DNA from: a phage | Strand: one strand, 5' to 3' | NCBI GenBank assembly: GCA_033697325.1 | Contig: GCA_033697325.1_4854.1 | Length of the DNA stretch: 46,335 nt | Shown: one piece after another, positions 1,201 through 34,636 of the stretch | How the letters are laid out: the number at the start of each line of letters is the position of its first letter | Numbering within the stretch: position 1 is the first letter of the stretch | Position numbers and translations under genes: made by a program | Notes under the pieces: generated by a model | Told to the model about the DNA's origin: nothing | Database searches by the model: none | Seen by the model: only the letters and a program-made list of their open reading frames with translations

Positions 1201-1656
1201 TTAAAAGCCATCAAATATCAATGGTTCTGATGGTTTGCTATGGTTTGGATAATTCATTGCTCGCCAGTCGTTAAATGCCATCATTGCCGCTTCCCAGCCG
1301 AGACAAACACAAGCGAATGAACCTAATCCTTTTGCTGTCTTAAGGTATGCCATTTGTCCAGGCTGCCATTTTGATAAAGTATGATCCATTCTTTTCATCT
1401 CCATAACGAATGATTGCTTTCCGCTAATAATGATGTCTGACGCCCCGAAGTTTAGCGCGCCTTTTTTCTTCAGGTTTTCAACTTCATACCCTTTACGCTT
1501 TCCTTCATTTGGTACATGAATCATAACTCTTGCAAAGTCAGGGTATAGCTTCCTTATCTGATTAACAAAAGTCTCCAGTTCAGCGTCTTCTGACGGGCAC
1601 TTTTTGTTTCTGTAATCTAAATTTCCATATACCTTAACGCCTTCTGGAAAAATCAT
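1201..1656 (-). CDS. VRR-NUC domain nuclease (PD-(D/E)xK family)
   Basis: Motifs VPNEG..., GASDIII, FVMEMKR, LSKWQ match VRR-NUC. ATG at 1656-1654 overlaps the helicase stop (ATGA coupling). Confidence 0.65.
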   Translation of the reverse strand: MIFPEGVKVYGNLDYRNKKCPSEDAELETFVNQIRKLYPDFARVMIHVPNEGKRKGYEVENLKKKGALNFGASDIIISGKQSFVMEMKRMDHTLSKWQPGQMAYLKTAKGLGSFACVCLGWEAAMMAFNDWRAMNYPNHSKPSEPLIFDGF

Positions 1657-4565
1657 AATACCCCCCAATACATGCCTTTAACGTTGAAATATTTACTACC
1701 CTTATCTCTTCTGAACATAATCACTGATGGCGCGACAGCCTCATCTCTTTTAGATATTGCATCATCAATTGACATGTTATGTTCACCAAAGCACTTCTCA
1801 CAAAATTCTTCCCACTCCTTCTTCATCCATTCCTTTTCAGAGTTTGGATTGTAGAACTTGCTAACAAAAAATGGCTTCTGGTCAATAGCAAATTTTACGT
1901 GCACCAAATCTTCACCACTTGAAACGTAATGCTTCATGATGTTCATCATGGTTACGCTTGATTGCTTGGTTGCATAAGGAGACGAATCAAGCCTGTCAGC
2001 TTCTTCCTTTAGCTTTTGGTTGGGGTCAATGATTTCAGCGCCGCATGATGTGCAGTTTCTTGCCGCTATATCATTTTCAAATCCACAATCAGGACACTCT
2101 TTCACCGACCACTTATAAGTACACCTGTGCATTTCCCTTAATGGCCCGTGCATAACGTAGTTTTTACATCTTCTGCCAAAATGAGCAGGCATAGGTTTGC
2201 TTCCAATTTTTTCACCTGACTTATCAAAAATATCAATCATCACCCTGTCACCAGCCAAATCAAGCCAGTAGCCTTCTTTGTCAACTTCCAGATTTTCCGG
2301 ATTTGGGCGCGCGCCAAATTCATTGATAAAGCCACACAACGGGCATTTTACATCCATTGGTACTGATGGTTTTTTCCTTGTTGCCTTTATTTCTGGGGTA
2401 AACAAGTCTCCAGTTTCTGAAAAGTGACGTTGAATATTTCCGGCGTAATCGCTGACAAGAAAGTCTTCCTTTCCCTCATAAAGACGCGTCCCTCTGCCAA
2501 TTATTTGCTGGTAGAGTCTTGGTGACTCTGTTGCTCTCATTACTGCTATATGATCACAATGAGGAACATCCACCCCTACAGTAAGGATATTCTGATTAAC
2601 GATGTATTTAACTTTTTGTGCCTTGAAGTCTGATATTGCCTTGTTGCGATCTGCTGTTGGCATATCACCAAAAACATAACTATAAGAACCGGGAGGAAGT
2701 GACTCCATTATCTCCATAGCGTGTTTCTTGGTACTGGCAAAAATCATCGTTCCGCGCCGATTAACAGAGCGACGGATAATATCTTCAACAATTCGTGATG
2801 TTTTCCTTCCCTTGCCAACCATCGCCTTTTCAACTGAAGCTGTTGTATACCGACCCAACTTATCCTTTTCAAGACAAGACGTATCATATTCTTCAAAAAC
2901 AGGCTCTGTAACTGGTGGCGTAAGATATCCATTTTCAATGAGGAATTTAGCCTCAAGCTCATAAACAACCTTATCATAATATGGGTCAATGGCAGTTTCT
3001 TCATCCGTAGGGCCATCGAGGTAGTGCTCTTTGTAGATGTATCCAGTTCCAAGGCGGTAAGGAGTGGCGGTCATTCCAATAACACGCAGTTTTTGATTGC
3101 GACGCTTCATTTCATTAATAATAAATTTTATGGTTGGCGTGATACCATCGCACTCGTCAATAATGACAGCACCATACTTATCACCAAACATCTCTATTGA
3201 GTTCTTTATTGTAACTGGTGAACCAAACACCACAGGATGACGCAGGTTTTTGGGGCCAGCCTTTGCACTGAACATGCTGGCTGGTTCTCCTGTTAGAGAA
3301 AGATAACGCTGCCTGTTTTGCACAACTAACTCACTTGTTGGGGCAACACACAAAACGCGCTTGCCAGTATTTTTAAAAACCCAATCGGCGATTGATGCAA
3401 CAACAACGCTTTTTCCGCTGTTATGGTGAATCGTGAAATCGCTGGTCAAATACAGATGGTCCCCATCTAAAGTAAATCCATAGAAATCATCTTCTGGTAA
3501 CTCCTCCACCTTAAAACCAGTACAGAGAACATCTTTTTTTTGCTTTCTCTCTTGTGCCACCTTGTAATCAATAAGCGGTTTAAGCATATCGATATCACCA
3601 CTGATACTTACTCTGTACTTTTTGGATACAAAAACACCGTCAAGAGTCGCGTCTCCTACGCCAATATACGCAGCCAGACCTAGTGATCTCGCAACAAACG
3701 CAATATCATCAGCAAGACGACCGGATACAGTGGTTATTTCGTAATAGTTATTGCCAAGATACCCATCAGTATCAACCAAGCCGGAGAGCAGCTCTATACG
3801 CTGTTCTTTTGACGCTATTTTGTAGCACTCAGGTATAAACACAGTGTAAGAGTTTGTGTATTGCAAACCAAGTTTTTTCACTTCATTAAGAATAGCGTTG
3901 CTTTTGTGTTTTCCTCTACCATTTGTTGCCATAAGATTGTGTGTATTTGTGCCATTTTTAACAGAGTCATTAACACAACAACCAAATGACTCTGACACGC
4001 TTTTGAAGTAGTTTATTAGTACATCCTCAGTTCCTGAAAATGTAACGCTACCGTTAGCTGTGGAACCGTCACCAAGAATCATCCCAACAAAACGCGCAGG
4101 TAAAGCCTGTTTAGCCTCTGGGAAGATAACACCTGTTCTGCATAGCTTATGTATATGCTTATGCCATTTTGCTGAACTTTCGTACTCAGCGACAGTTTCG
4201 TCGATGTACGACACCTCTTGAGATGGATATTTATTCACCTGCTTTTGCTTTACTCTCTTGAGATGAAGAATGTGATTCTTGTTAACAACAAAAGAATCAC
4301 CTTTAACTGGTGTAATTTTTCTCATCTCTTCTCGCCCACGGCACAGAGCAAGCACATTTCGTGGCTTGCTGTCCGGGCCCATTAATCTATCTCCGACTGT
4401 AACATCTTCAACGCTCTTGACGCTTCCATCAAACATAATGACTTTCGTTCCTTTGGCGTGACACCCTGTAGGCAAGATGATCATGCACGATGAAACGCTT
4501 GAACGAATATGACCTATAACAGAATCAACAGCTTCTTGTTGGTATGTTCTAAGCTGTACTTTCAT
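1653..4565 (-). CDS. SF2 (DEAD/DEAH-like) DNA helicase, interrupted by an intein; C-terminal zinc-ribbon region
   Basis: Motif I LPTG|SGKS is split by the intein. DExD-like VIIDECDG and MTATPYR motifs. C-terminal CPLCG...CPDCG...CTSCG. Start chosen at ATG 4565-4563, preceded by SD gagagga. Confidence 0.85.
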   Translation of the reverse strand: MKVQLRTYQQEAVDSVIGHIRSSVSSCMIILPTGCHAKGTKVIMFDGSVKSVEDVTVGDRLMGPDSKPRNVLALCRGREEMRKITPVKGDSFVVNKNHILHLKRVKQKQVNKYPSQEVSYIDETVAEYESSAKWHKHIHKLCRTGVIFPEAKQALPARFVGMILGDGSTANGSVTFSGTEDVLINYFKSVSESFGCCVNDSVKNGTNTHNLMATNGRGKHKSNAILNEVKKLGLQYTNSYTVFIPECYKIASKEQRIELLSGLVDTDGYLGNNYYEITTVSGRLADDIAFVARSLGLAAYIGVGDATLDGVFVSKKYRVSISGDIDMLKPLIDYKVAQERKQKKDVLCTGFKVEELPEDDFYGFTLDGDHLYLTSDFTIHHNSGKSVVVASIADWVFKNTGKRVLCVAPTSELVVQNRQRYLSLTGEPASMFSAKAGPKNLRHPVVFGSPVTIKNSIEMFGDKYGAVIIDECDGITPTIKFIINEMKRRNQKLRVIGMTATPYRLGTGYIYKEHYLDGPTDEETAIDPYYDKVVYELEAKFLIENGYLTPPVTEPVFEEYDTSCLEKDKLGRYTTASVEKAMVGKGRKTSRIVEDIIRRSVNRRGTMIFASTKKHAMEIMESLPPGSYSYVFGDMPTADRNKAISDFKAQKVKYIVNQNILTVGVDVPHCDHIAVMRATESPRLYQQIIGRGTRLYEGKEDFLVSDYAGNIQRHFSETGDLFTPEIKATRKKPSVPMDVKCPLCGFINEFGARPNPENLEVDKEGYWLDLAGDRVMIDIFDKSGEKIGSKPMPAHFGRRCKNYVMHGPLREMHRCTYKWSVKECPDCGFENDIAARNCTSCGAEIIDPNQKLKEEADRLDSSPYATKQSSVTMMNIMKHYVSSGEDLVHVKFAIDQKPFFVSKFYNPNSEKEWMKKEWEEFCEKCFGEHNMSIDDAISKRDEAVAPSVIMFRRDKGSKYFNVKGMYWGVL
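3420..4463 (-). mobile_element. Intein (348 aa) with LAGLIDADG homing endonuclease domain inserted in helicase P-loop
   Basis: Begins with Cys right after LPTG and ends ...TIHHN followed by Ser of SGKS. Two LAGLIDADG-like motifs (VGMILGDGS and LSGLVDTDGYL). Confidence 0.8.
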
Positions 4566-4579
4566 AGTGTCCTCTCGAA

Positions 4580-4602
4580 TAAAAAGGGCCACGAATGGCC
4601 CT
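4580..4602 (-). terminator. Intrinsic terminator/attenuator-like hairpin between SSB-like gene and helicase
   Basis: Minus strand agggcc-attcgt-ggccct followed by ttttt, immediately upstream of the helicase SD. Confidence 0.35.
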
Positions 4603-4618
4603 GTCATTCCAATCTAAA

Positions 4619-29417: not shown

Positions 29418-29440
29418 AAGCCCTCGATTGAGGGCTTGTC
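29418..29440. terminator. Bidirectional intrinsic terminator
   Basis: aagccctc-gatt-gagggctt hairpin; T-rich on the minus strand after the PP-loop gene stop. Confidence 0.55.
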
Positions 29441-29441
29441 A

Positions 29442-30254
29442 TTAATTCTCATTAGAAAATGCTTCGCAACTCTCGCTGCATGAACCAGTATCGTACTGGC
29501 GCATTGACGTCATTCGTGATGCCAGTTCATCCCTGCTTACATCGTTAAATAAAACTATAACGTCGCCAAGACTTCTGTTTGAGCGATACATTATCTTGTC
29601 TGATTTTTTATCTTCATCCTGAATCATCTTCCAAAACTCAGCAGCAAGTTCCGGCTCATCCTTTGCAGCAAGTGCAACTTTCTGCAGGCTCTTCTTGATG
29701 CAGAAAACGCAATTACCAAGATGCTCCTGAATACCAAGGTCGAATGGTTGCATTGACCACCAGTCAAGGATATCCTGCTTTTCAAAGTCGCTAATGTCTG
29801 CAAGGTAATGAAAACCGTCACCTCGGTTCTTTAACCGGTTTGGTTCATCGGACCTGATGCCAAGCCATCTTTCGTAGTTTCCTTTCCCGTATTTTTCATT
29901 ACAGTATTTAGTGAATGGCACGGTCTTCATTCTGTCGGTGCAGAATGCTCCACCAACGTATGGATGACCATACTTACGCAACATTCTCCGCCACGGCTCA
30001 AGGTCTGGACCAATCTCATCGACGGTTAGCTGCTCATACGTACTTGCCTTACGCATTTGCATATTTGGAACCACGCGAATACATGTCACGGCGACATTGA
30101 AATGCTTTGCGAAGTTGCGAATAAACTCATACGTTTTTGGGTGCTCTGCTCCAGTATCCATAAAGATAATTTCGGCTTCTGGGTGTATCTTTAGCACCTC
30201 CAGCGTCATAAACGCTGAAGTTCTACCGCCTGAAAAGCTAATAACTTGATTCAT
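29442..30254 (-). CDS. PP-loop ATP pyrophosphatase, PAPS reductase-like (DndC/IbrA-like N-domain)
   Basis: N-terminal SFSGGRTS PP-loop motif; 270 aa; SD aaaggag; own promoter. Confidence 0.7.
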   Translation of the reverse strand: MNQVISFSGGRTSAFMTLEVLKIHPEAEIIFMDTGAEHPKTYEFIRNFAKHFNVAVTCIRVVPNMQMRKASTYEQLTVDEIGPDLEPWRRMLRKYGHPYVGGAFCTDRMKTVPFTKYCNEKYGKGNYERWLGIRSDEPNRLKNRGDGFHYLADISDFEKQDILDWWSMQPFDLGIQEHLGNCVFCIKKSLQKVALAAKDEPELAAEFWKMIQDEDKKSDKIMYRSNRSLGDVIVLFNDVSRDELASRMTSMRQYDTGSCSESCEAFSNEN

Positions 30255-30358: not shown

Positions 30359-30901
30359 CTACAGACGCATAGGCATAACAACAATCTTCGCAGTCTCGCC
30401 AGATGGCGCGCTAAGGCAGCAAACTGCGGCATTTGTGTTTCCATTCAGTTCAAACTTAACGCTACTGAATTTATGGTTAAACAGCTTCGCCACTTTCTCA
30501 ATATCAACAAGGTAGCCAGCATTGAAGCCAATTTCCTCTGTTGGTAAGGTCTGCTTCGGTATAACACGATCAATATCAGGGAATCGACCATCAATCTCTT
30601 CACAGATACCAGCGCCCACAATTGTGTCCATATGGCCAAAATGATAGGTAACGATTCCAGATTTTGTATCGATTATCGCATGGTTATATTTCTTTGTCGG
30701 AGACTTGCTGACCTTTACAATTATATTTTCAGCAATCTCGTTGTCATGACCGCCACCAATGAATGCGCGATGACCGTCAGTTGACGCAATGCGACCATCA
30801 GTCATGAAGCAGATGCCGTTCAGGTAGTAGCGCGCATCATTGCGCGCCTGAAATATTAATGCTGACTCAAGTAATAATTTGCTGATTTTTAGTTTCATCA
30901 T
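30359..30901 (-). CDS. Truncated DNA polymerase III beta sliding clamp (DnaN) homolog: domain II plus C-terminal half of domain III
   Basis: DARYYLNG...ASTDGHRA, DGRFPDIDRVIPK, EEIGFNAGYLVD and C-terminal IVVMPMRL line up with E. coli DnaN residues about 130-366 as recalled from memory. Domain I is absent. Confidence 0.65.
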   Translation of the reverse strand: MMKLKISKLLLESALIFQARNDARYYLNGICFMTDGRIASTDGHRAFIGGGHDNEIAENIIVKVSKSPTKKYNHAIIDTKSGIVTYHFGHMDTIVGAGICEEIDGRFPDIDRVIPKQTLPTEEIGFNAGYLVDIEKVAKLFNHKFSSVKFELNGNTNAAVCCLSAPSGETAKIVVMPMRL

Positions 30902-31071
30902 TTCACCTTAATCATGTGCTGTTTTGCAACCTTCAGGCATTCTTCAAAAATGCCACCTTTCTTAGCGCTCTGATTGCGCTTGTAATACTGAATTGCCGCA
31001 TCAATTGCCATCTGGTCGATATCAGGCAGCTTGGTGCGAAGTTGTTTTTCGATGAATTGTTCTGGTGTCAT
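30898..31071 (-). CDS. Hypothetical small protein (57 aa)
   Basis: Translationally coupled on both sides; below the ORF track cutoff. Confidence 0.4.
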   Translation of the reverse strand: MTPEQFIEKQLRTKLPDIDQMAIDAAIQYYKRNQSAKKGGIFEECLKVAKQHMIKVK

Positions 31072-31880
31072 CACATCTTCTCCAGAATTGCCATAACCTC
31101 GTGAATGTCAGCAACAGGAATCTGGATAAATTCCTCATCCTCTGCCACAACATGGCCAGCAGGTAGAATCACGTGTTCTGCCGGCTTCAATAACTCAATC
31201 AGGCGGTCTACTGGCTTAATCTTTTTCGACTTCAGCACTTTTGCTGTGACCTTGTCTTTGCCTTGCGCCTTCGCTTCTTCCACGGCCTCGTCGATAACTT
31301 TTACCGCATCATCGCCATGCTCGCGCGTTACTGCTACGGCATTTGCATAGCTGATTTGTCCGGCACTGATGCGCGCTTTCACTTCCGCTGGCACATCACC
31401 CAGCGACAGGTGCATTTGCACGTCAGATACTGAGCGACCTACCTTTTTGGCTATTTCCTCGTTGGTCCAGCCAAATCCTTTCAGTCGCGTGTAAGCCTTT
31501 GCGCGCTCAAACGGGTCAAGTTGCTTGCCCTGACTTGATGACACCATGAAGGCGATTTTGTCCGCCTCGTCGCCAGTGAAATCCTTACATTCAATGCGAA
31601 CGATTGGCGCACCACGCTCAATGGCACGCAATGCGCCGAGATAGCGGTGCTGACCGTCAAGAATGCGGATTCCCTTCTCATCTGGAATAACTGTTAACGC
31701 TGGTAATGGCTGACCGGACTCCCAGCACTGCGCGAAATATTCGACATGCTGTTCATCTGCTTCACGGATGTTGTATCCCGGCTCAAGATAGATTTGCTCC
31801 ACTGGAACGAGATAGGTTTTGTTTACCGCGATGCCGTTGCGCGTCTCTTTGTCTGAATAGATTTTGCTGAGTGTTTTCAT
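31071..31880 (-). CDS. DGQHR-domain / ParB-like protein with HTH
   Basis: Exact DGQHR motif in IRILDGQHRYLGAL; HTH-like WTNEEIAKKVGRSVSDVQMHL; SD aagga. Confidence 0.7.
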   Translation of the reverse strand: MKTLSKIYSDKETRNGIAVNKTYLVPVEQIYLEPGYNIREADEQHVEYFAQCWESGQPLPALTVIPDEKGIRILDGQHRYLGALRAIERGAPIVRIECKDFTGDEADKIAFMVSSSQGKQLDPFERAKAYTRLKGFGWTNEEIAKKVGRSVSDVQMHLSLGDVPAEVKARISAGQISYANAVAVTREHGDDAVKVIDEAVEEAKAQGKDKVTAKVLKSKKIKPVDRLIELLKPAEHVILPAGHVVAEDEEFIQIPVADIHEVMAILEKM

Positions 31881-32098: not shown

Positions 32099-32127
32099 AC
32101 TATAAACACCTCATCAATCTACGTCAA
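32099..32127 (-). promoter_or_regulatory. Leftward promoter for the island operon
   Basis: Minus strand TTGACG, 17-nt spacer, TATAGT; motif copies at 32086-32095 and 32117-32126. Confidence 0.5.
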
Positions 32128-34559: not shown

Positions 34560-34636
34560 TGGTGGACACGGACGGATTTGAACCTTCAATCAGCCGATTA
34601 TGAGTCGGTTGCTTTAACCAATTAAGCTACGCGTCC
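34560..34636 (-). tRNA. tRNA with CAU anticodon (elongator Met or lysidine-modified Ile2; not initiator-like)
   Basis: 77-nt cloverleaf folded by hand: 7-bp acceptor stem including one GU, D-arm with GG, anticodon loop CUCAUAA, T-loop GGTTCAAATCC, discriminator A, encoded CCA. G1-C72 pair argues against initiator. Confidence 0.75.

What the first reader, a model, noticed from the sequence alone, without database searches (positions are those of the whole stretch)
30359..30901. Phage-encoded truncated beta sliding clamp retaining the partner-binding pocket region
The 180-aa product aligns by eye with E. coli DnaN domain II and the last 50 residues of domain III, down to the C-terminal VVMPMRL. 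Domain I and the first half of domain III are absent, so it cannot form a normal head-to-tail ring. The retained parts are those that form the hydrophobic cleft binding clamp-binding motifs. It could act as a decoy for clamp-binding proteins, poison host clamp dimers, or serve as an adaptor for the neighbouring island proteins.
Basis: partly seen in the sequence, partly recalled or inferred. Interest (0 to 1): 0.85.

Follow-up and report, generated by a model that had tools for sequence, protein, structure and literature searches.

The report
Phage half-size beta-clamp keeping the docking pocket
A Skatevirus-like phage encodes a 180-residue cut-down copy of the bacterial DNA sliding clamp that keeps the pocket where polymerases and repair enzymes dock but lacks the parts that close the ring. 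It belongs to a large, conserved and functionally untested phage protein family that probably hijacks or diverts host clamp-binding proteins.

Summary
The ORF at 30359..30901 (- strand, 180 aa) is a true homologue of DnaN. A family profile aligns to E. coli DnaN 137-366 with one gap over about residues 254-312 (hhalign 99.5%, E 1.7e-22). The product is therefore domain II plus the second beta-alpha-beta-beta-beta half of domain III, ending in VVMPMRL.

Domain I and the domain III half that holds dimer-interface residues I272/L273 are absent. Sixteen of 17 mappable pocket residues are identical to E. coli beta, against about 29% identity overall. These positions are also the most conserved in the family.

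It is not a one-off truncation. There are 297 phage records, at least about 130 clusters at 50% identity with lengths of 165-225 aa, and dN/dS of 0.12.

AlphaFold2 gives a compact fold (pLDDT 97). A tandem fusion gives pTM 0.75, suggesting a homodimer that does not mimic a beta protomer. Family pI is about 8, against 5.25 for DnaN.

GenBank already labels these genes "DNA polymerase III beta subunit", and a 2011 survey noted shorter phage homologues. I found no functional study.

The best reading is a non-ring clamp-derived hub whose pocket captures host clamp-binding proteins during phage replication. A soluble decoy is the main rival. Poisoning host clamp dimers is unlikely.

The parts
30359..30901 (-). 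CDS of the short beta-clamp homologue (180 aa; probable true start at the second ATG, 30898; stop codon 30359-30361)
   Evidence: phrog_3007 E 1.6e-57 over the full length. dN/dS 0.12 among 51 close homologues.
30551..30901 (-). aa 1-117, the DnaN domain II-like part (DnaN about 129-250). In this subfamily the second inner helix is replaced by a 9-residue Lys/Pro loop, aa 65-73.
   Evidence: Alignments. AF2 secondary structure. Segment lengths.
30362..30550 (-). aa 118-180, a single beta-alpha-beta-beta-beta motif equal to the second half of DnaN domain III (about 313-366). The first half (about 254-312) is deleted.
   Evidence: hhalign gap. Second HMMER stretch 122-180 to 315-366. AF2 secondary structure.
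30815..30838 (-). DARYYLNG (aa 22-29), equal to DnaN D150-G157. R24 = R152 and L27 = L155 belong to pocket subsite I. D22, R24, Y26, L27 and G29 are at least 90% conserved.
30764..30781 (-). TDGHRA (aa 41-46), equal to DnaN T172-L177 of the pocket. Only L177 to A46 differs.
30554..30592 (-). DGRFPDIDRVIPK (aa 104-116), equal to DnaN D238-K250. It carries pocket residues P108 = P242, R112 = R246 and V113 = V247.
30503..30535 (-). EIGFNAGYLVD (aa 123-133), equal to DnaN E316-D326. It carries pocket subsite II residues N127 = N320 and Y130 = Y323. This strand becomes regular only in the tandem (dimer) model.
30362..30382 (-). VVMPMRL C-terminus (aa 174-180), identical to DnaN V360-L366. It supplies pocket residues V360, M362, P363, M364 and R365.
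30898..31074 (-). 58-aa gene of unknown function (phrog_4439). Its stop overlaps the clamp gene start, so the two may be translationally coupled.
   Evidence: Conserved at the same position in Skate and HC6.
31071..31880 (-). ParB-like DNA-binding protein (HTH_ParB, KorB; DGQHR-type motif), the first large gene of the leftward operon
   Evidence: Adjacent to the short clamp also in Serratia phage Eta and a few genes away in Pseudomonas phage TC7.
31884..32075 (-). 63-aa gene of unknown function (phrog_37822), promoter-proximal in the operon
29442..30254 (-). PAPS-reductase-like protein (phrog_33262; weak SspD/BrxP similarity). It is the variable last cassette of the operon and is separated from the clamp gene by 104 bp.
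   Evidence: Covered by only 1 of 194 related records.
32099..32127 (-). sigma-70-like promoter match (TTGACG-17-TATAGT, 10/12) upstream of the leftward operon
   Evidence: consensus match only
29418..29437 (-). Intrinsic-terminator-like hairpin plus T-run at the end of the leftward operon
   Evidence: Terminators are annotated at the equivalent place in phage Skate.

Best explanation
The gene encodes a non-ring derivative of the bacterial beta sliding clamp. It consists of domain II plus the second half of domain III, which together form the clamp's peptide-docking pocket.

Shown:
- homology to DnaN and the exact architecture;
- loss of domain I and of the domain III half that carries the ring-closing interface;
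- near-perfect retention of the pocket residues and their strong conservation;
- purifying selection;
- membership of a large phage and prophage family.

Inferred: the protein folds on its own and probably pairs head-to-head through the orphan half-domain into a homodimer with two pockets. It is made from an early, host-type leftward operon. It uses the pockets to capture host proteins that carry clamp-binding motifs, such as Pol III alpha/epsilon, the clamp-loader delta subunit, Pol I, ligase, Hda or MutS/L.

My preferred version is that it acts on phage DNA or at the phage replisome. There it would be a loader-independent docking hub that brings host replication enzymes to a phage lacking its own replicative polymerase. 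The logic resembles the open herpesvirus clamps UL42/UL44, with less certainty that it confers processivity.
For: Homology and architecture.

Pocket:
- 16 of 17 residues are identical to E. coli beta, against about 29% identity overall.
- The family's near-invariant positions are D22, R24, Y26, L27, G29, T41, G43, H44, P108, Y130, M176 and P177. These equal DnaN D150, R152, Y154, L155, G157, T172, G174, H175, P242, Y323, M362 and P363.

Folding and pairing:
- The monomer model has pLDDT 97 and pTM 0.91.
- The tandem fusion gives pTM 0.75, although 70 of its 430 residues are linker or peptide, and the orphan strands 123-127 and 147-153 become regular. By my rough estimate, two unplaced domains would give about 0.46.
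- The tandem model does not superpose collinearly on a beta protomer (TMt 0.34, rmsd 21 A). This fits a non-head-to-tail pairing.

Charge: family pI is median 8.0 (query 7.7) against 5.25 for DnaN. Conserved K/R positions lie on both helices (12, 136, 139), in the loop that replaces helix 2 (66, 70) and at the H148-equivalent position 20. Higher pI is the criterion Kazlauskas & Venclovas used for non-ring, loader-independent clamps.

Replication contexts:
- cII, short clamp, O-like initiator, then DnaB helicase or a DnaC-like loader;
- short clamp, DUF2800 nuclease, then PolA;
- next to helicase, nuclease, SSB or primase genes in phage Eta, Nafs113, Skarpretter and R20L.

This phage has a Prim-Pol/helicase, an SF2 helicase, Sak4 and SSB, but no replicative polymerase among its ORFs.

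No credible clamp-binding motif was found in the phage's own proteins, which points to host ligands.

dN/dS is 0.12.
Against: - There is no experimental data on any family member.
- A fused consensus QLDLF peptide was not docked confidently (peptide block pLDDT about 50).
- Pocket residues are also the best-conserved part of DnaN itself, and homology searches favour sequences that share them. The conservation argument is therefore partly circular.
- A monomeric E. coli beta (I272A/L273A) binds DNA but cannot tether Pol III processively (review PMC11139829). An open beta derivative may therefore not work as a processivity factor.
- The pI shift is modest, and the query has a net charge of only +1.
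- The dimer comes from a tandem-fusion trick with a 27-sequence alignment, and I could not inspect coordinates.
- Some placements look like accessory or moron slots rather than core replication genes. Examples are inside structural modules on the opposite strand in Skatevirus, Kagunavirus and Gorganvirus.
Confidence: 0.42

Rival explanations
1. Soluble decoy or competitor. The free pocket titrates clamp-binding-motif proteins away from the host beta clamp. Candidate clients are the delta wrench, Hda (blocking RIDA), MutS/MutL, translesion polymerases, or an unknown defence or toxin protein that docks on DnaN. This would reprogramme or shut down host DNA transactions without the protein touching DNA.
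For: - The pocket is retained and conserved while the ring is lost.
- The gene sits in an early, host-promoter-type operon in an accessory island with ParB-like and DNA-modification genes.
- Placements are moron-like in several lineages.
- It often neighbours Dam or Dcm methylases, which would fit interference with methyl-directed mismatch repair.
- Phage manipulation of beta-clamp clients has precedent: MuC titrating the clamp and causing over-initiation (abstracts listed).
Against: - The phage appears to need host Pol III, whose alpha and epsilon subunits would also be titrated.
- A pure decoy has no need for the conserved basic residues on the helices or for dimerisation.
- Many contexts are inside replication modules.
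- No client has been identified.
Confidence: 0.3
2. Adaptor for the island's own proteins. It would tether the ParB-like protein and DNA-modifying enzymes (methylases, or here the PAPS reductase) to replicating DNA, much as eukaryotic PCNA tethers DNMT1.
For: - Co-operonic with ParB-like and PAPS reductase here.
- ParB is adjacent in phage Eta and nearby in TC7.
- Methylases lie within a few genes in HC6, Skarpretter, TC7 and R20L.
- The only clamp-binding-motif-like string in the proteome is QMHLSL in ParB.
Against: - The family occurs without ParB, methylase or PAPS reductase in lambdoid-type prophage contigs, Kagunavirus and Gorganvirus.
- QMHLSL lies in the ParB helix-turn-helix and is not conserved in distant ParB homologues.
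- The PAPS reductase is a rare variable cassette.
- A pocket tuned to a phage partner would not need to stay 16/17 identical to the host pocket.
Confidence: 0.1
3. A genuine closed sliding clamp built from more subunits. For example, four 1.5-domain subunits would give six domains, as three copies of the two-domain E. coli beta* are reported to do. The host clamp loader would load it.
For: - The clamp fold is retained with high confidence.
- Self-association is predicted.
- 4 x 3 motifs equals the 12 motifs of a ring (arithmetic).
- The delta-binding pocket is retained.
- The beta* precedent is recalled from memory (Skaliter/Livneh 1996).
Against: - Both native ring interfaces are missing.
- One of the three inner helices is replaced by a loop in this subfamily.
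- pI is shifted away from that of ring clamps.
- A symmetric ring would need head-to-head and tail-to-tail contacts and would place pockets on both faces.
- It could not be tested here.
Confidence: 0.1
4. A poison subunit that caps or heterodimerises with host beta monomers and breaks host clamps.
For: It is a homologue of beta with exposed sheet edges.
Against: The segments that make the beta-beta interface (domain I I78/F106; domain III I272/L273 and I305) are exactly those absent. The model prefers self-pairing.
Confidence: 0.05
5. RusA-like Holliday junction resolvase, as labelled by PHROGs and RefSeq.
For: Only the label of phrog_3007, propagated into RefSeq records.
Against: There is no RusA match in Pfam or NCBIfam. 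Fold and sequence are beta-clamp.
Confidence: 0.01

Closest known systems
Bacterial beta sliding clamp DnaN (E. coli, 366 aa; PF00712/PF02767/PF02768, TIGR00663)
   Same: - Homologous over DnaN 137-253 and 313-366.
- Same clamp fold.
- Same peptide-binding pocket residues (16/17), including the C-terminal VVMPMRL.
- Closest to enterobacterial DnaN, even for a Pseudomonas phage member.
   Different: - Has 1.5 domains instead of 3.
- Lacks domain I and the first half of domain III, and so both faces of the head-to-tail dimer interface.
- Lacks one inner helix.
- Neutral to basic rather than acidic.
- Scores below the curated family cut-offs.
Short phage polIII-beta homologues (phrog_3007; GenBank 'DNA polymerase III beta subunit' of Skatevirus, Kagunavirus, Jerseyvirus and others; noted by Kazlauskas & Venclovas 2011, PMC3201878)
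   Same: This protein is a typical member: full-length match at E 1.6e-57, 297 phage records, and the same length and motifs.
   Different: [quoted passage not shown]
- It does not describe the 1.5-domain architecture, the pocket conservation, the loss of ring interfaces or the predicted self-pairing.
- No function has been assigned.
E. coli beta* (UV-inducible 26-kDa internal product of dnaN, domains II+III; from memory, Skaliter/Paz-Elizur/Livneh 1996)
   Same: The N-terminal boundary is nearly the same (start of domain II), and the pocket is retained.
   Different: beta* keeps the whole of domain III and was reported to form a trimeric ring-like clamp. The phage protein lacks a further 60 residues and cannot use that geometry.
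Herpesvirus non-ring processivity factors UL42 (monomer) and UL44 (head-to-head C-shaped dimer)
   Same: - Clamp fold used without ring closure or a loader.
- More basic than ring clamps.
- UL44 pairs head-to-head, as I infer here.
- Binds its polymerase through a peptide-docking site.
   Different: - No detectable sequence relationship.
- Two full domains per subunit.
- They partner a virus-encoded polymerase.
- DNA binding and processivity are unproven for the phage protein.
Phage proteins that act on the host clamp system (Mu MuC binding beta; N4 gp8 against the delta subunit and Staphylococcus phage clamp inhibitors, from memory)
   Same: They target the same host interaction network (the clamp pocket and its clients) to favour the phage.
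   Different: Those proteins bind the clamp or loader as ligands. This one would imitate the clamp's receptor site itself.

Membership tests
Beta sliding clamp DnaN | Significant sequence homology to DnaN | tested here: met
   phmmer E 1.9e-12; BLASTP 6e-14; hhalign 99.5%, E 1.7e-22
Beta sliding clamp DnaN | Three clamp-fold domains (about 366 aa) reaching the curated model cut-offs | tested here: not met
   180 aa, equal to domain II plus half of domain III. TIGR00663 scores 37.2 bits against 137.65. PF02767 scores 18.2 and PF02768 scores 16.5 against 27. There is no PF00712 hit.
Beta sliding clamp DnaN | Head-to-tail homodimer interface (domain I I78/F106 with domain III I272/L273) | tested here: not met
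   Both segments fall in the parts absent from the alignment. Interface residues are from PMC11139829. The tandem model does not superpose on a beta protomer (TMt 0.34).
Beta sliding clamp DnaN | Peptide (clamp-binding motif) pocket, subsites I and II | tested here: met
   At sequence level, 16 of 17 mapped residues are identical and strongly conserved in the family. Actual peptide binding was not shown: the fused QLDLF peptide had pLDDT about 50.
Beta sliding clamp DnaN | Encircles DNA after loading by the clamp loader and confers processivity | not testable with these tools
   Needs biochemistry. The loss of interfaces, the loss of one inner helix and the higher pI argue against it.
Short phage polIII-beta-like family (phrog_3007) | Full-length match to the family profile and the family's length class | tested here: met
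   E 1.6e-57, residues 2-180 on profile positions 1-186 of 190. 556 clusters at 90% identity. Lengths 169-223 aa.
RusA Holliday junction resolvase (label attached to phrog_3007) | Match to RusA models or fold | tested here: not met
   No RusA family appears in the Pfam or NCBIfam scans. Structural matches are all DnaN.
E. coli beta*-type two-domain clamp | Complete domains II and III | tested here: not met
   Domain III residues about 254-312 are missing.
Non-ring viral processivity factors (UL42/UL44-like, functional class) | Clamp fold without ring closure | tested here: met
Non-ring viral processivity factors (UL42/UL44-like, functional class) | Basic DNA-binding face, direct DNA binding and stimulation of a polymerase | tested here: inconclusive
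   Family pI is median 8.0 against 5.25 for DnaN, with conserved K/R on the helices and the replacement loop. The query has a net charge of only +1. There is no binding data.
Non-ring viral processivity factors (UL42/UL44-like, functional class) | Head-to-head self-association (UL44) | tested here: inconclusive
   The tandem fusion gives pTM 0.75 and the motif-3 strands become regular. The geometry is not visible because coordinates could not be inspected.

The most novel reading that the evidence does not exclude
The short clamp is a new class of bacterial-virus replication factor: a head-to-head, open, loader-independent dimer derived from DnaN. It would sit on phage DNA and present two authentic beta-type pockets, so hijacking the host Pol III holoenzyme, clamp loader or other clamp clients for a phage that encodes no polymerase. 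This would be a prokaryotic counterpart of herpesvirus UL44 and a natural receptor mimic of the clamp pocket.
Probability: 0.3. Interest if true: 0.8.

Novelty: new variant of a known kind. Interest (0 to 1): 0.6.

Why it matters
The beta-clamp pocket is the central docking site of bacterial replication and repair, and it is an antibiotic target. A widespread phage family keeps only that pocket, in a form that cannot make the normal ring. This suggests a natural tool for capturing or diverting clamp clients. If confirmed, it would:
- show how polymerase-less phages commandeer the host replisome, or how they silence host DNA transactions;
- provide a minimal, soluble pocket scaffold for inhibitor screening;
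- correct a propagated mis-annotation ('RusA-like resolvase' or full 'DNA polymerase III beta subunit') in hundreds of phage genomes.

Tried and rejected
- Frame or start error hiding a full-length clamp: rejected. The upstream sequence is a separate conserved gene, and the family length is uniform.
- RusA resolvase label: rejected.
- Anti-phage defence component: no PADLOC hit for the clamp.
- Clamp-binding motifs in phage proteins as the pocket's ligand:
  - Only ParB QMHLSL was found in the window. It lies inside the helix-turn-helix and is not conserved in distant ParB homologues.
  - A 'QIAMF' C-terminal hit turned out to be a spurious antisense ORF over the tail-tube gene.
  - No motif was found in the O-like initiators.
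- Fused-peptide docking test: inconclusive.
- Collinear head-to-tail mimic of a beta protomer by two copies: rejected.
- Context of distant members by exact-protein look-up: only short contigs were returned, so I switched to tblastn on phage genomes and IMG/VR loci.
- E. coli genome search with a prophage version: found only the neighbouring DUF2740/O genes, not the clamp.
- AFDB Foldseek library: unavailable.
- Literature searches for any functional study of truncated or short phage DnaN: none found apart from the 2011 survey sentence.
- Supplement of the 2011 paper: not held.
Full report
**What is there.** The window is a nearly complete genome of a Skatevirus-like siphovirus of Escherichia/Salmonella. 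The island region is 92.5% identical to Escherichia phage EcoIv28_Lewi, and other parts are about 90% identical to phages C1, Skate, seszw and Sa179lw. The ORF at 30359..30901 on the - strand encodes 180 aa. It has an AAGGTG ribosome-binding site and two adjacent ATG codons. Because 92% of homologues start at the position of the second Met, the real start is probably 30898.

**Checking the observation.** The similarity to DnaN is real and extends over the whole protein.
- phmmer against all PDB sequences returns only beta clamps. The best are Enterobacter (E 1.9e-12) and E. coli (2.5e-11). Residues 8-156 align to DnaN 136-289, and a second stretch, 122-180, aligns to DnaN 315-366.
- BLASTP against E. 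coli DnaN gives the same two segments (6e-14 and 3e-06).
- A profile of 134 diverse family members aligns to DnaN 137-366 in one piece, with a single gap over about 254-312 (99.5%, E 1.7e-22).

That gap is the first beta-alpha-beta-beta-beta motif of domain III. The protein is therefore domain II plus the second half of domain III, ending in VVMPMRL exactly as E. coli DnaN does. No frame or start correction can restore a full clamp. The upstream sequence is a separate conserved 58-aa gene (phrog_4439) that overlaps the start by 4 nt, and homologues are uniformly short. Curated DnaN models match only below threshold.

**It is a family, not an accident.**
- The protein matches phrog_3007 over its full length (E 1.6e-57).
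- A word-indexed search found 556 clusters at 90% identity.
- An exhaustive HMMER search of 1.84 billion cluster representatives found 1789 hits at E up to 1e-3. Of the best 150, 133 are 165-225 aa and only two are full-length DnaN.
- tblastn finds it in 297 phage genomes infecting Salmonella, Escherichia, Vibrio, Klebsiella, Acinetobacter, Burkholderia, Proteus, Pseudomonas, Pantoea and others.
- BFVD holds about 20 viral structure clusters of 163-250 aa with the same fold (TM 0.7-0.9).
- Among 51 close homologues dN/dS is 0.12.
- A Pseudomonas phage member is still closer to enterobacterial DnaN than to Pseudomonas DnaN. This suggests an old phage lineage rather than repeated capture from each host.

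**What is kept and what is lost.** The review PMC11139829 lists the pocket residues. Subsite I is R152, L155, T172, G174, H175, R176, L177, P242, R246, V247, V360 and M362. Subsite II is H175, N320, Y323, V344, M362, P363, M364 and R365. I could map 17 of them, and 16 are identical in the phage protein (only L177 becomes A46), against about 29% identity overall.

Across the 134-member alignment, the near-invariant columns are D22, R24, Y26, L27, G29, T41, G43, H44, P108, Y130, M176 and P177. Nine of these twelve are listed pocket residues; the other three (D22, Y26, G29) lie in the DARYYLNG segment beside R24 and L27. Pocket positions have a mean top-residue frequency of 0.76, against 0.36 elsewhere (Mann-Whitney p = 6e-8). 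One caveat applies: these are also the best-conserved parts of DnaN, and homology searches favour them.

The residues that hold the beta dimer together all lie in the missing parts. These are I78 and F106 in domain I, and I272 and L273 in domain III.

**Structure.**
- AlphaFold2 with the family alignment gives a very confident compact model (pLDDT 97, pTM 0.91).
- Its best PDB matches are all DnaN (TM 0.65-0.68 on the query).
- In this subfamily the second inner helix of domain II is replaced by a 9-residue Lys/Pro loop. Some distant members keep a helix-like 'PRESIEQL' segment.
- I modelled a tandem construct, protein-GS30-protein-GS30-SGEGQLDLFD, with a 27-sequence alignment. It gave pTM 0.75, with domain pLDDT of 75-93 and linker pLDDT of 32-40. 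The otherwise irregular strands 123-127 and 147-153 became regular.
- By my rough estimate, two unplaced domains would give pTM of about 0.46. The model therefore predicts self-association, probably through the orphan half-domain.
- The tandem model does not superpose collinearly on a beta protomer (TMt 0.34, rmsd 21 A), which excludes a simple head-to-tail mimic.
- The fused consensus peptide was not docked with confidence (block pLDDT about 50), so that test is inconclusive.

**Charge.** The family is neutral to basic (median pI 8.0, query 7.7), against 5.25 for E. coli DnaN. Conserved K/R positions lie on both helices, in the loop that replaces helix 2, and at the position equivalent to H148. 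Kazlauskas & Venclovas (PMC3201878) used exactly this property to separate non-ring, loader-independent viral clamps from ring clamps.

**Genomic context.** In this window the gene lies in a five-gene leftward operon embedded in the rightward structural module. In order, the operon is: a sigma-70-like promoter (32127..32099), a 63-aa gene, a ParB-like gene, a 58-aa gene, the short clamp, a 104-bp gap, a PAPS-reductase-like gene, and a terminator (29437..29418).

The PAPS reductase is a rare cassette, covered by only one of 194 related records. Phage HC6 carries a cytosine methylase in the island instead, and phage Skate has neither.

Elsewhere the family sits in these positions:
- between cII and an O-like initiator plus DnaB helicase or DnaC-like loader, in lambdoid-type prophage contigs;
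- upstream of a DUF2800 nuclease and PolA;
- next to ParB and an SF2 helicase in Serratia phage Eta;
- next to helicase and nuclease genes in Pantoea phage Nafs113;
- between Dam and Dcm methylases beside primase and helicase genes in Skarpretter;
- near a methylase and SSB in Vibrio phage R20L;
- near ParB and a cytosine methylase in Pseudomonas phage TC7;
- alone on the opposite strand inside structural genes in Kagunavirus and Gorganvirus.

Replication genes are the most frequent neighbours. Methylases recur, but I did not test that statistically.

This phage encodes a Prim-Pol/PriCT-2/DUF3987 primase-helicase, an SF2 helicase, Sak4 and SSB, but no replicative polymerase. It presumably uses host Pol III (inference).

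**Mechanism.** The following are shown: a clamp-derived fold, an intact and conserved pocket, no native ring interfaces, and purifying selection. The rest is inferred.

I favour a non-ring, probably dimeric hub whose pockets bind host proteins carrying clamp-binding motifs and which acts at phage DNA or the phage replisome (confidence 0.42). The reasons are the replication contexts, the basic shift, the self-association and the absence of a phage polymerase.

The main rival is a soluble decoy that titrates clamp clients (0.30). It fits the accessory-island placement and the methylase neighbours. However, it would also titrate the Pol III the phage needs, and it does not explain the conserved basic residues.

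The other rivals are weaker:
- an adaptor for ParB or the modification enzymes (0.10), contradicted by lineages that lack those genes;
- a closed ring from four subunits (0.10), disfavoured by the lost interfaces and the lost helix;
- poisoning of host beta dimers (0.05), since the interface segments are absent;
- the RusA label (0.01), which is refuted.

A point against any processivity role: monomeric E. coli beta binds DNA but cannot tether Pol III processively.

**Prior knowledge and novelty.** GenBank records already call these genes 'DNA polymerase III beta subunit', 'sliding clamp' or, wrongly, 'RusA-like Holliday junction resolvase'. [quoted passage not shown]

I found no paper that describes the 1.5-domain architecture, the selective retention of the pocket, the oligomeric state or a function. 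The library searched is limited to open-access papers and bioRxiv.

The finding is therefore a real, already-annotated but uncharacterised variant of a known protein kind. It has a clear and testable hypothesis. Interest 0.6.

Noticed in passing
window 1653..4607 (-): The 984-aa SF2 helicase is interrupted by an intein. Pfam finds Hom_end-associated Hint at aa 49-136 and a LAGLIDADG homing endonuclease at aa 268-339, ahead of the ResIII/Helicase_C core.
   Followed up: partly
window 29442..30254 (-): A PAPS-reductase-like gene (phrog_33262; weak SspD/BrxP similarity) follows the clamp gene after a 104-bp gap. Only one of 194 related phage records covers it. Relatives carry a cytosine methylase elsewhere in the island, or nothing, so this end of the island behaves as a swappable DNA-modification cassette.
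   Followed up: partly
window 31071..31880 (-): The ParB-like protein has a DGQHR-type motif (weak TIGR03187 hit), as in DndB-like proteins. Together with the PAPS reductase this resembles ParB/PAPS-reductase pairs such as IbrB/IbrA (from memory). It also carries the only clamp-binding-motif-like string of the proteome (QMHLSL, aa 155), which lies inside its helix-turn-helix.
   Followed up: partly
RefSeq phage records, e.g. NC_054651, NC_054639, NC_031918: The PHROG label 'RusA-like Holliday junction resolvase' for phrog_3007 has been propagated into many RefSeq phage annotations. No RusA similarity supports it.
   Followed up: yes
L033 6001..6543: In one metagenomic Skatevirus-like contig the homologue is split into two ORFs of 80 and 98 aa. 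This is either a pseudogene or a sequencing error.
   Followed up: no
window 34560..34636 (-): A single tRNA with anticodon CAT lies on the - strand among + strand head-tail and tail-region genes. ARAGORN calls it tRNA-Met, while relatives annotate the equivalent gene as tRNA-Ile. It may be a lysidine-type tRNA-Ile2.
   Followed up: no
window, whole proteome: Clamp-binding-motif-like strings (Q-aliphatic-x-L/M-(x)-F/L) are rare. There is 1 in about 14,000 residues of called ORFs, against a rough expectation of about 6 from amino-acid frequencies (the expectation is my estimate).
   Followed up: no
L064/L084 and E. coli genomes: In the lambdoid-type prophage contigs the short clamp lies between cII and the O-like replication gene. 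Only about 140 bp just downstream of it matched E. coli genomes, at loci annotated DUF2740 family protein and replication protein. The clamp gene itself found no E. coli match.
   Followed up: no
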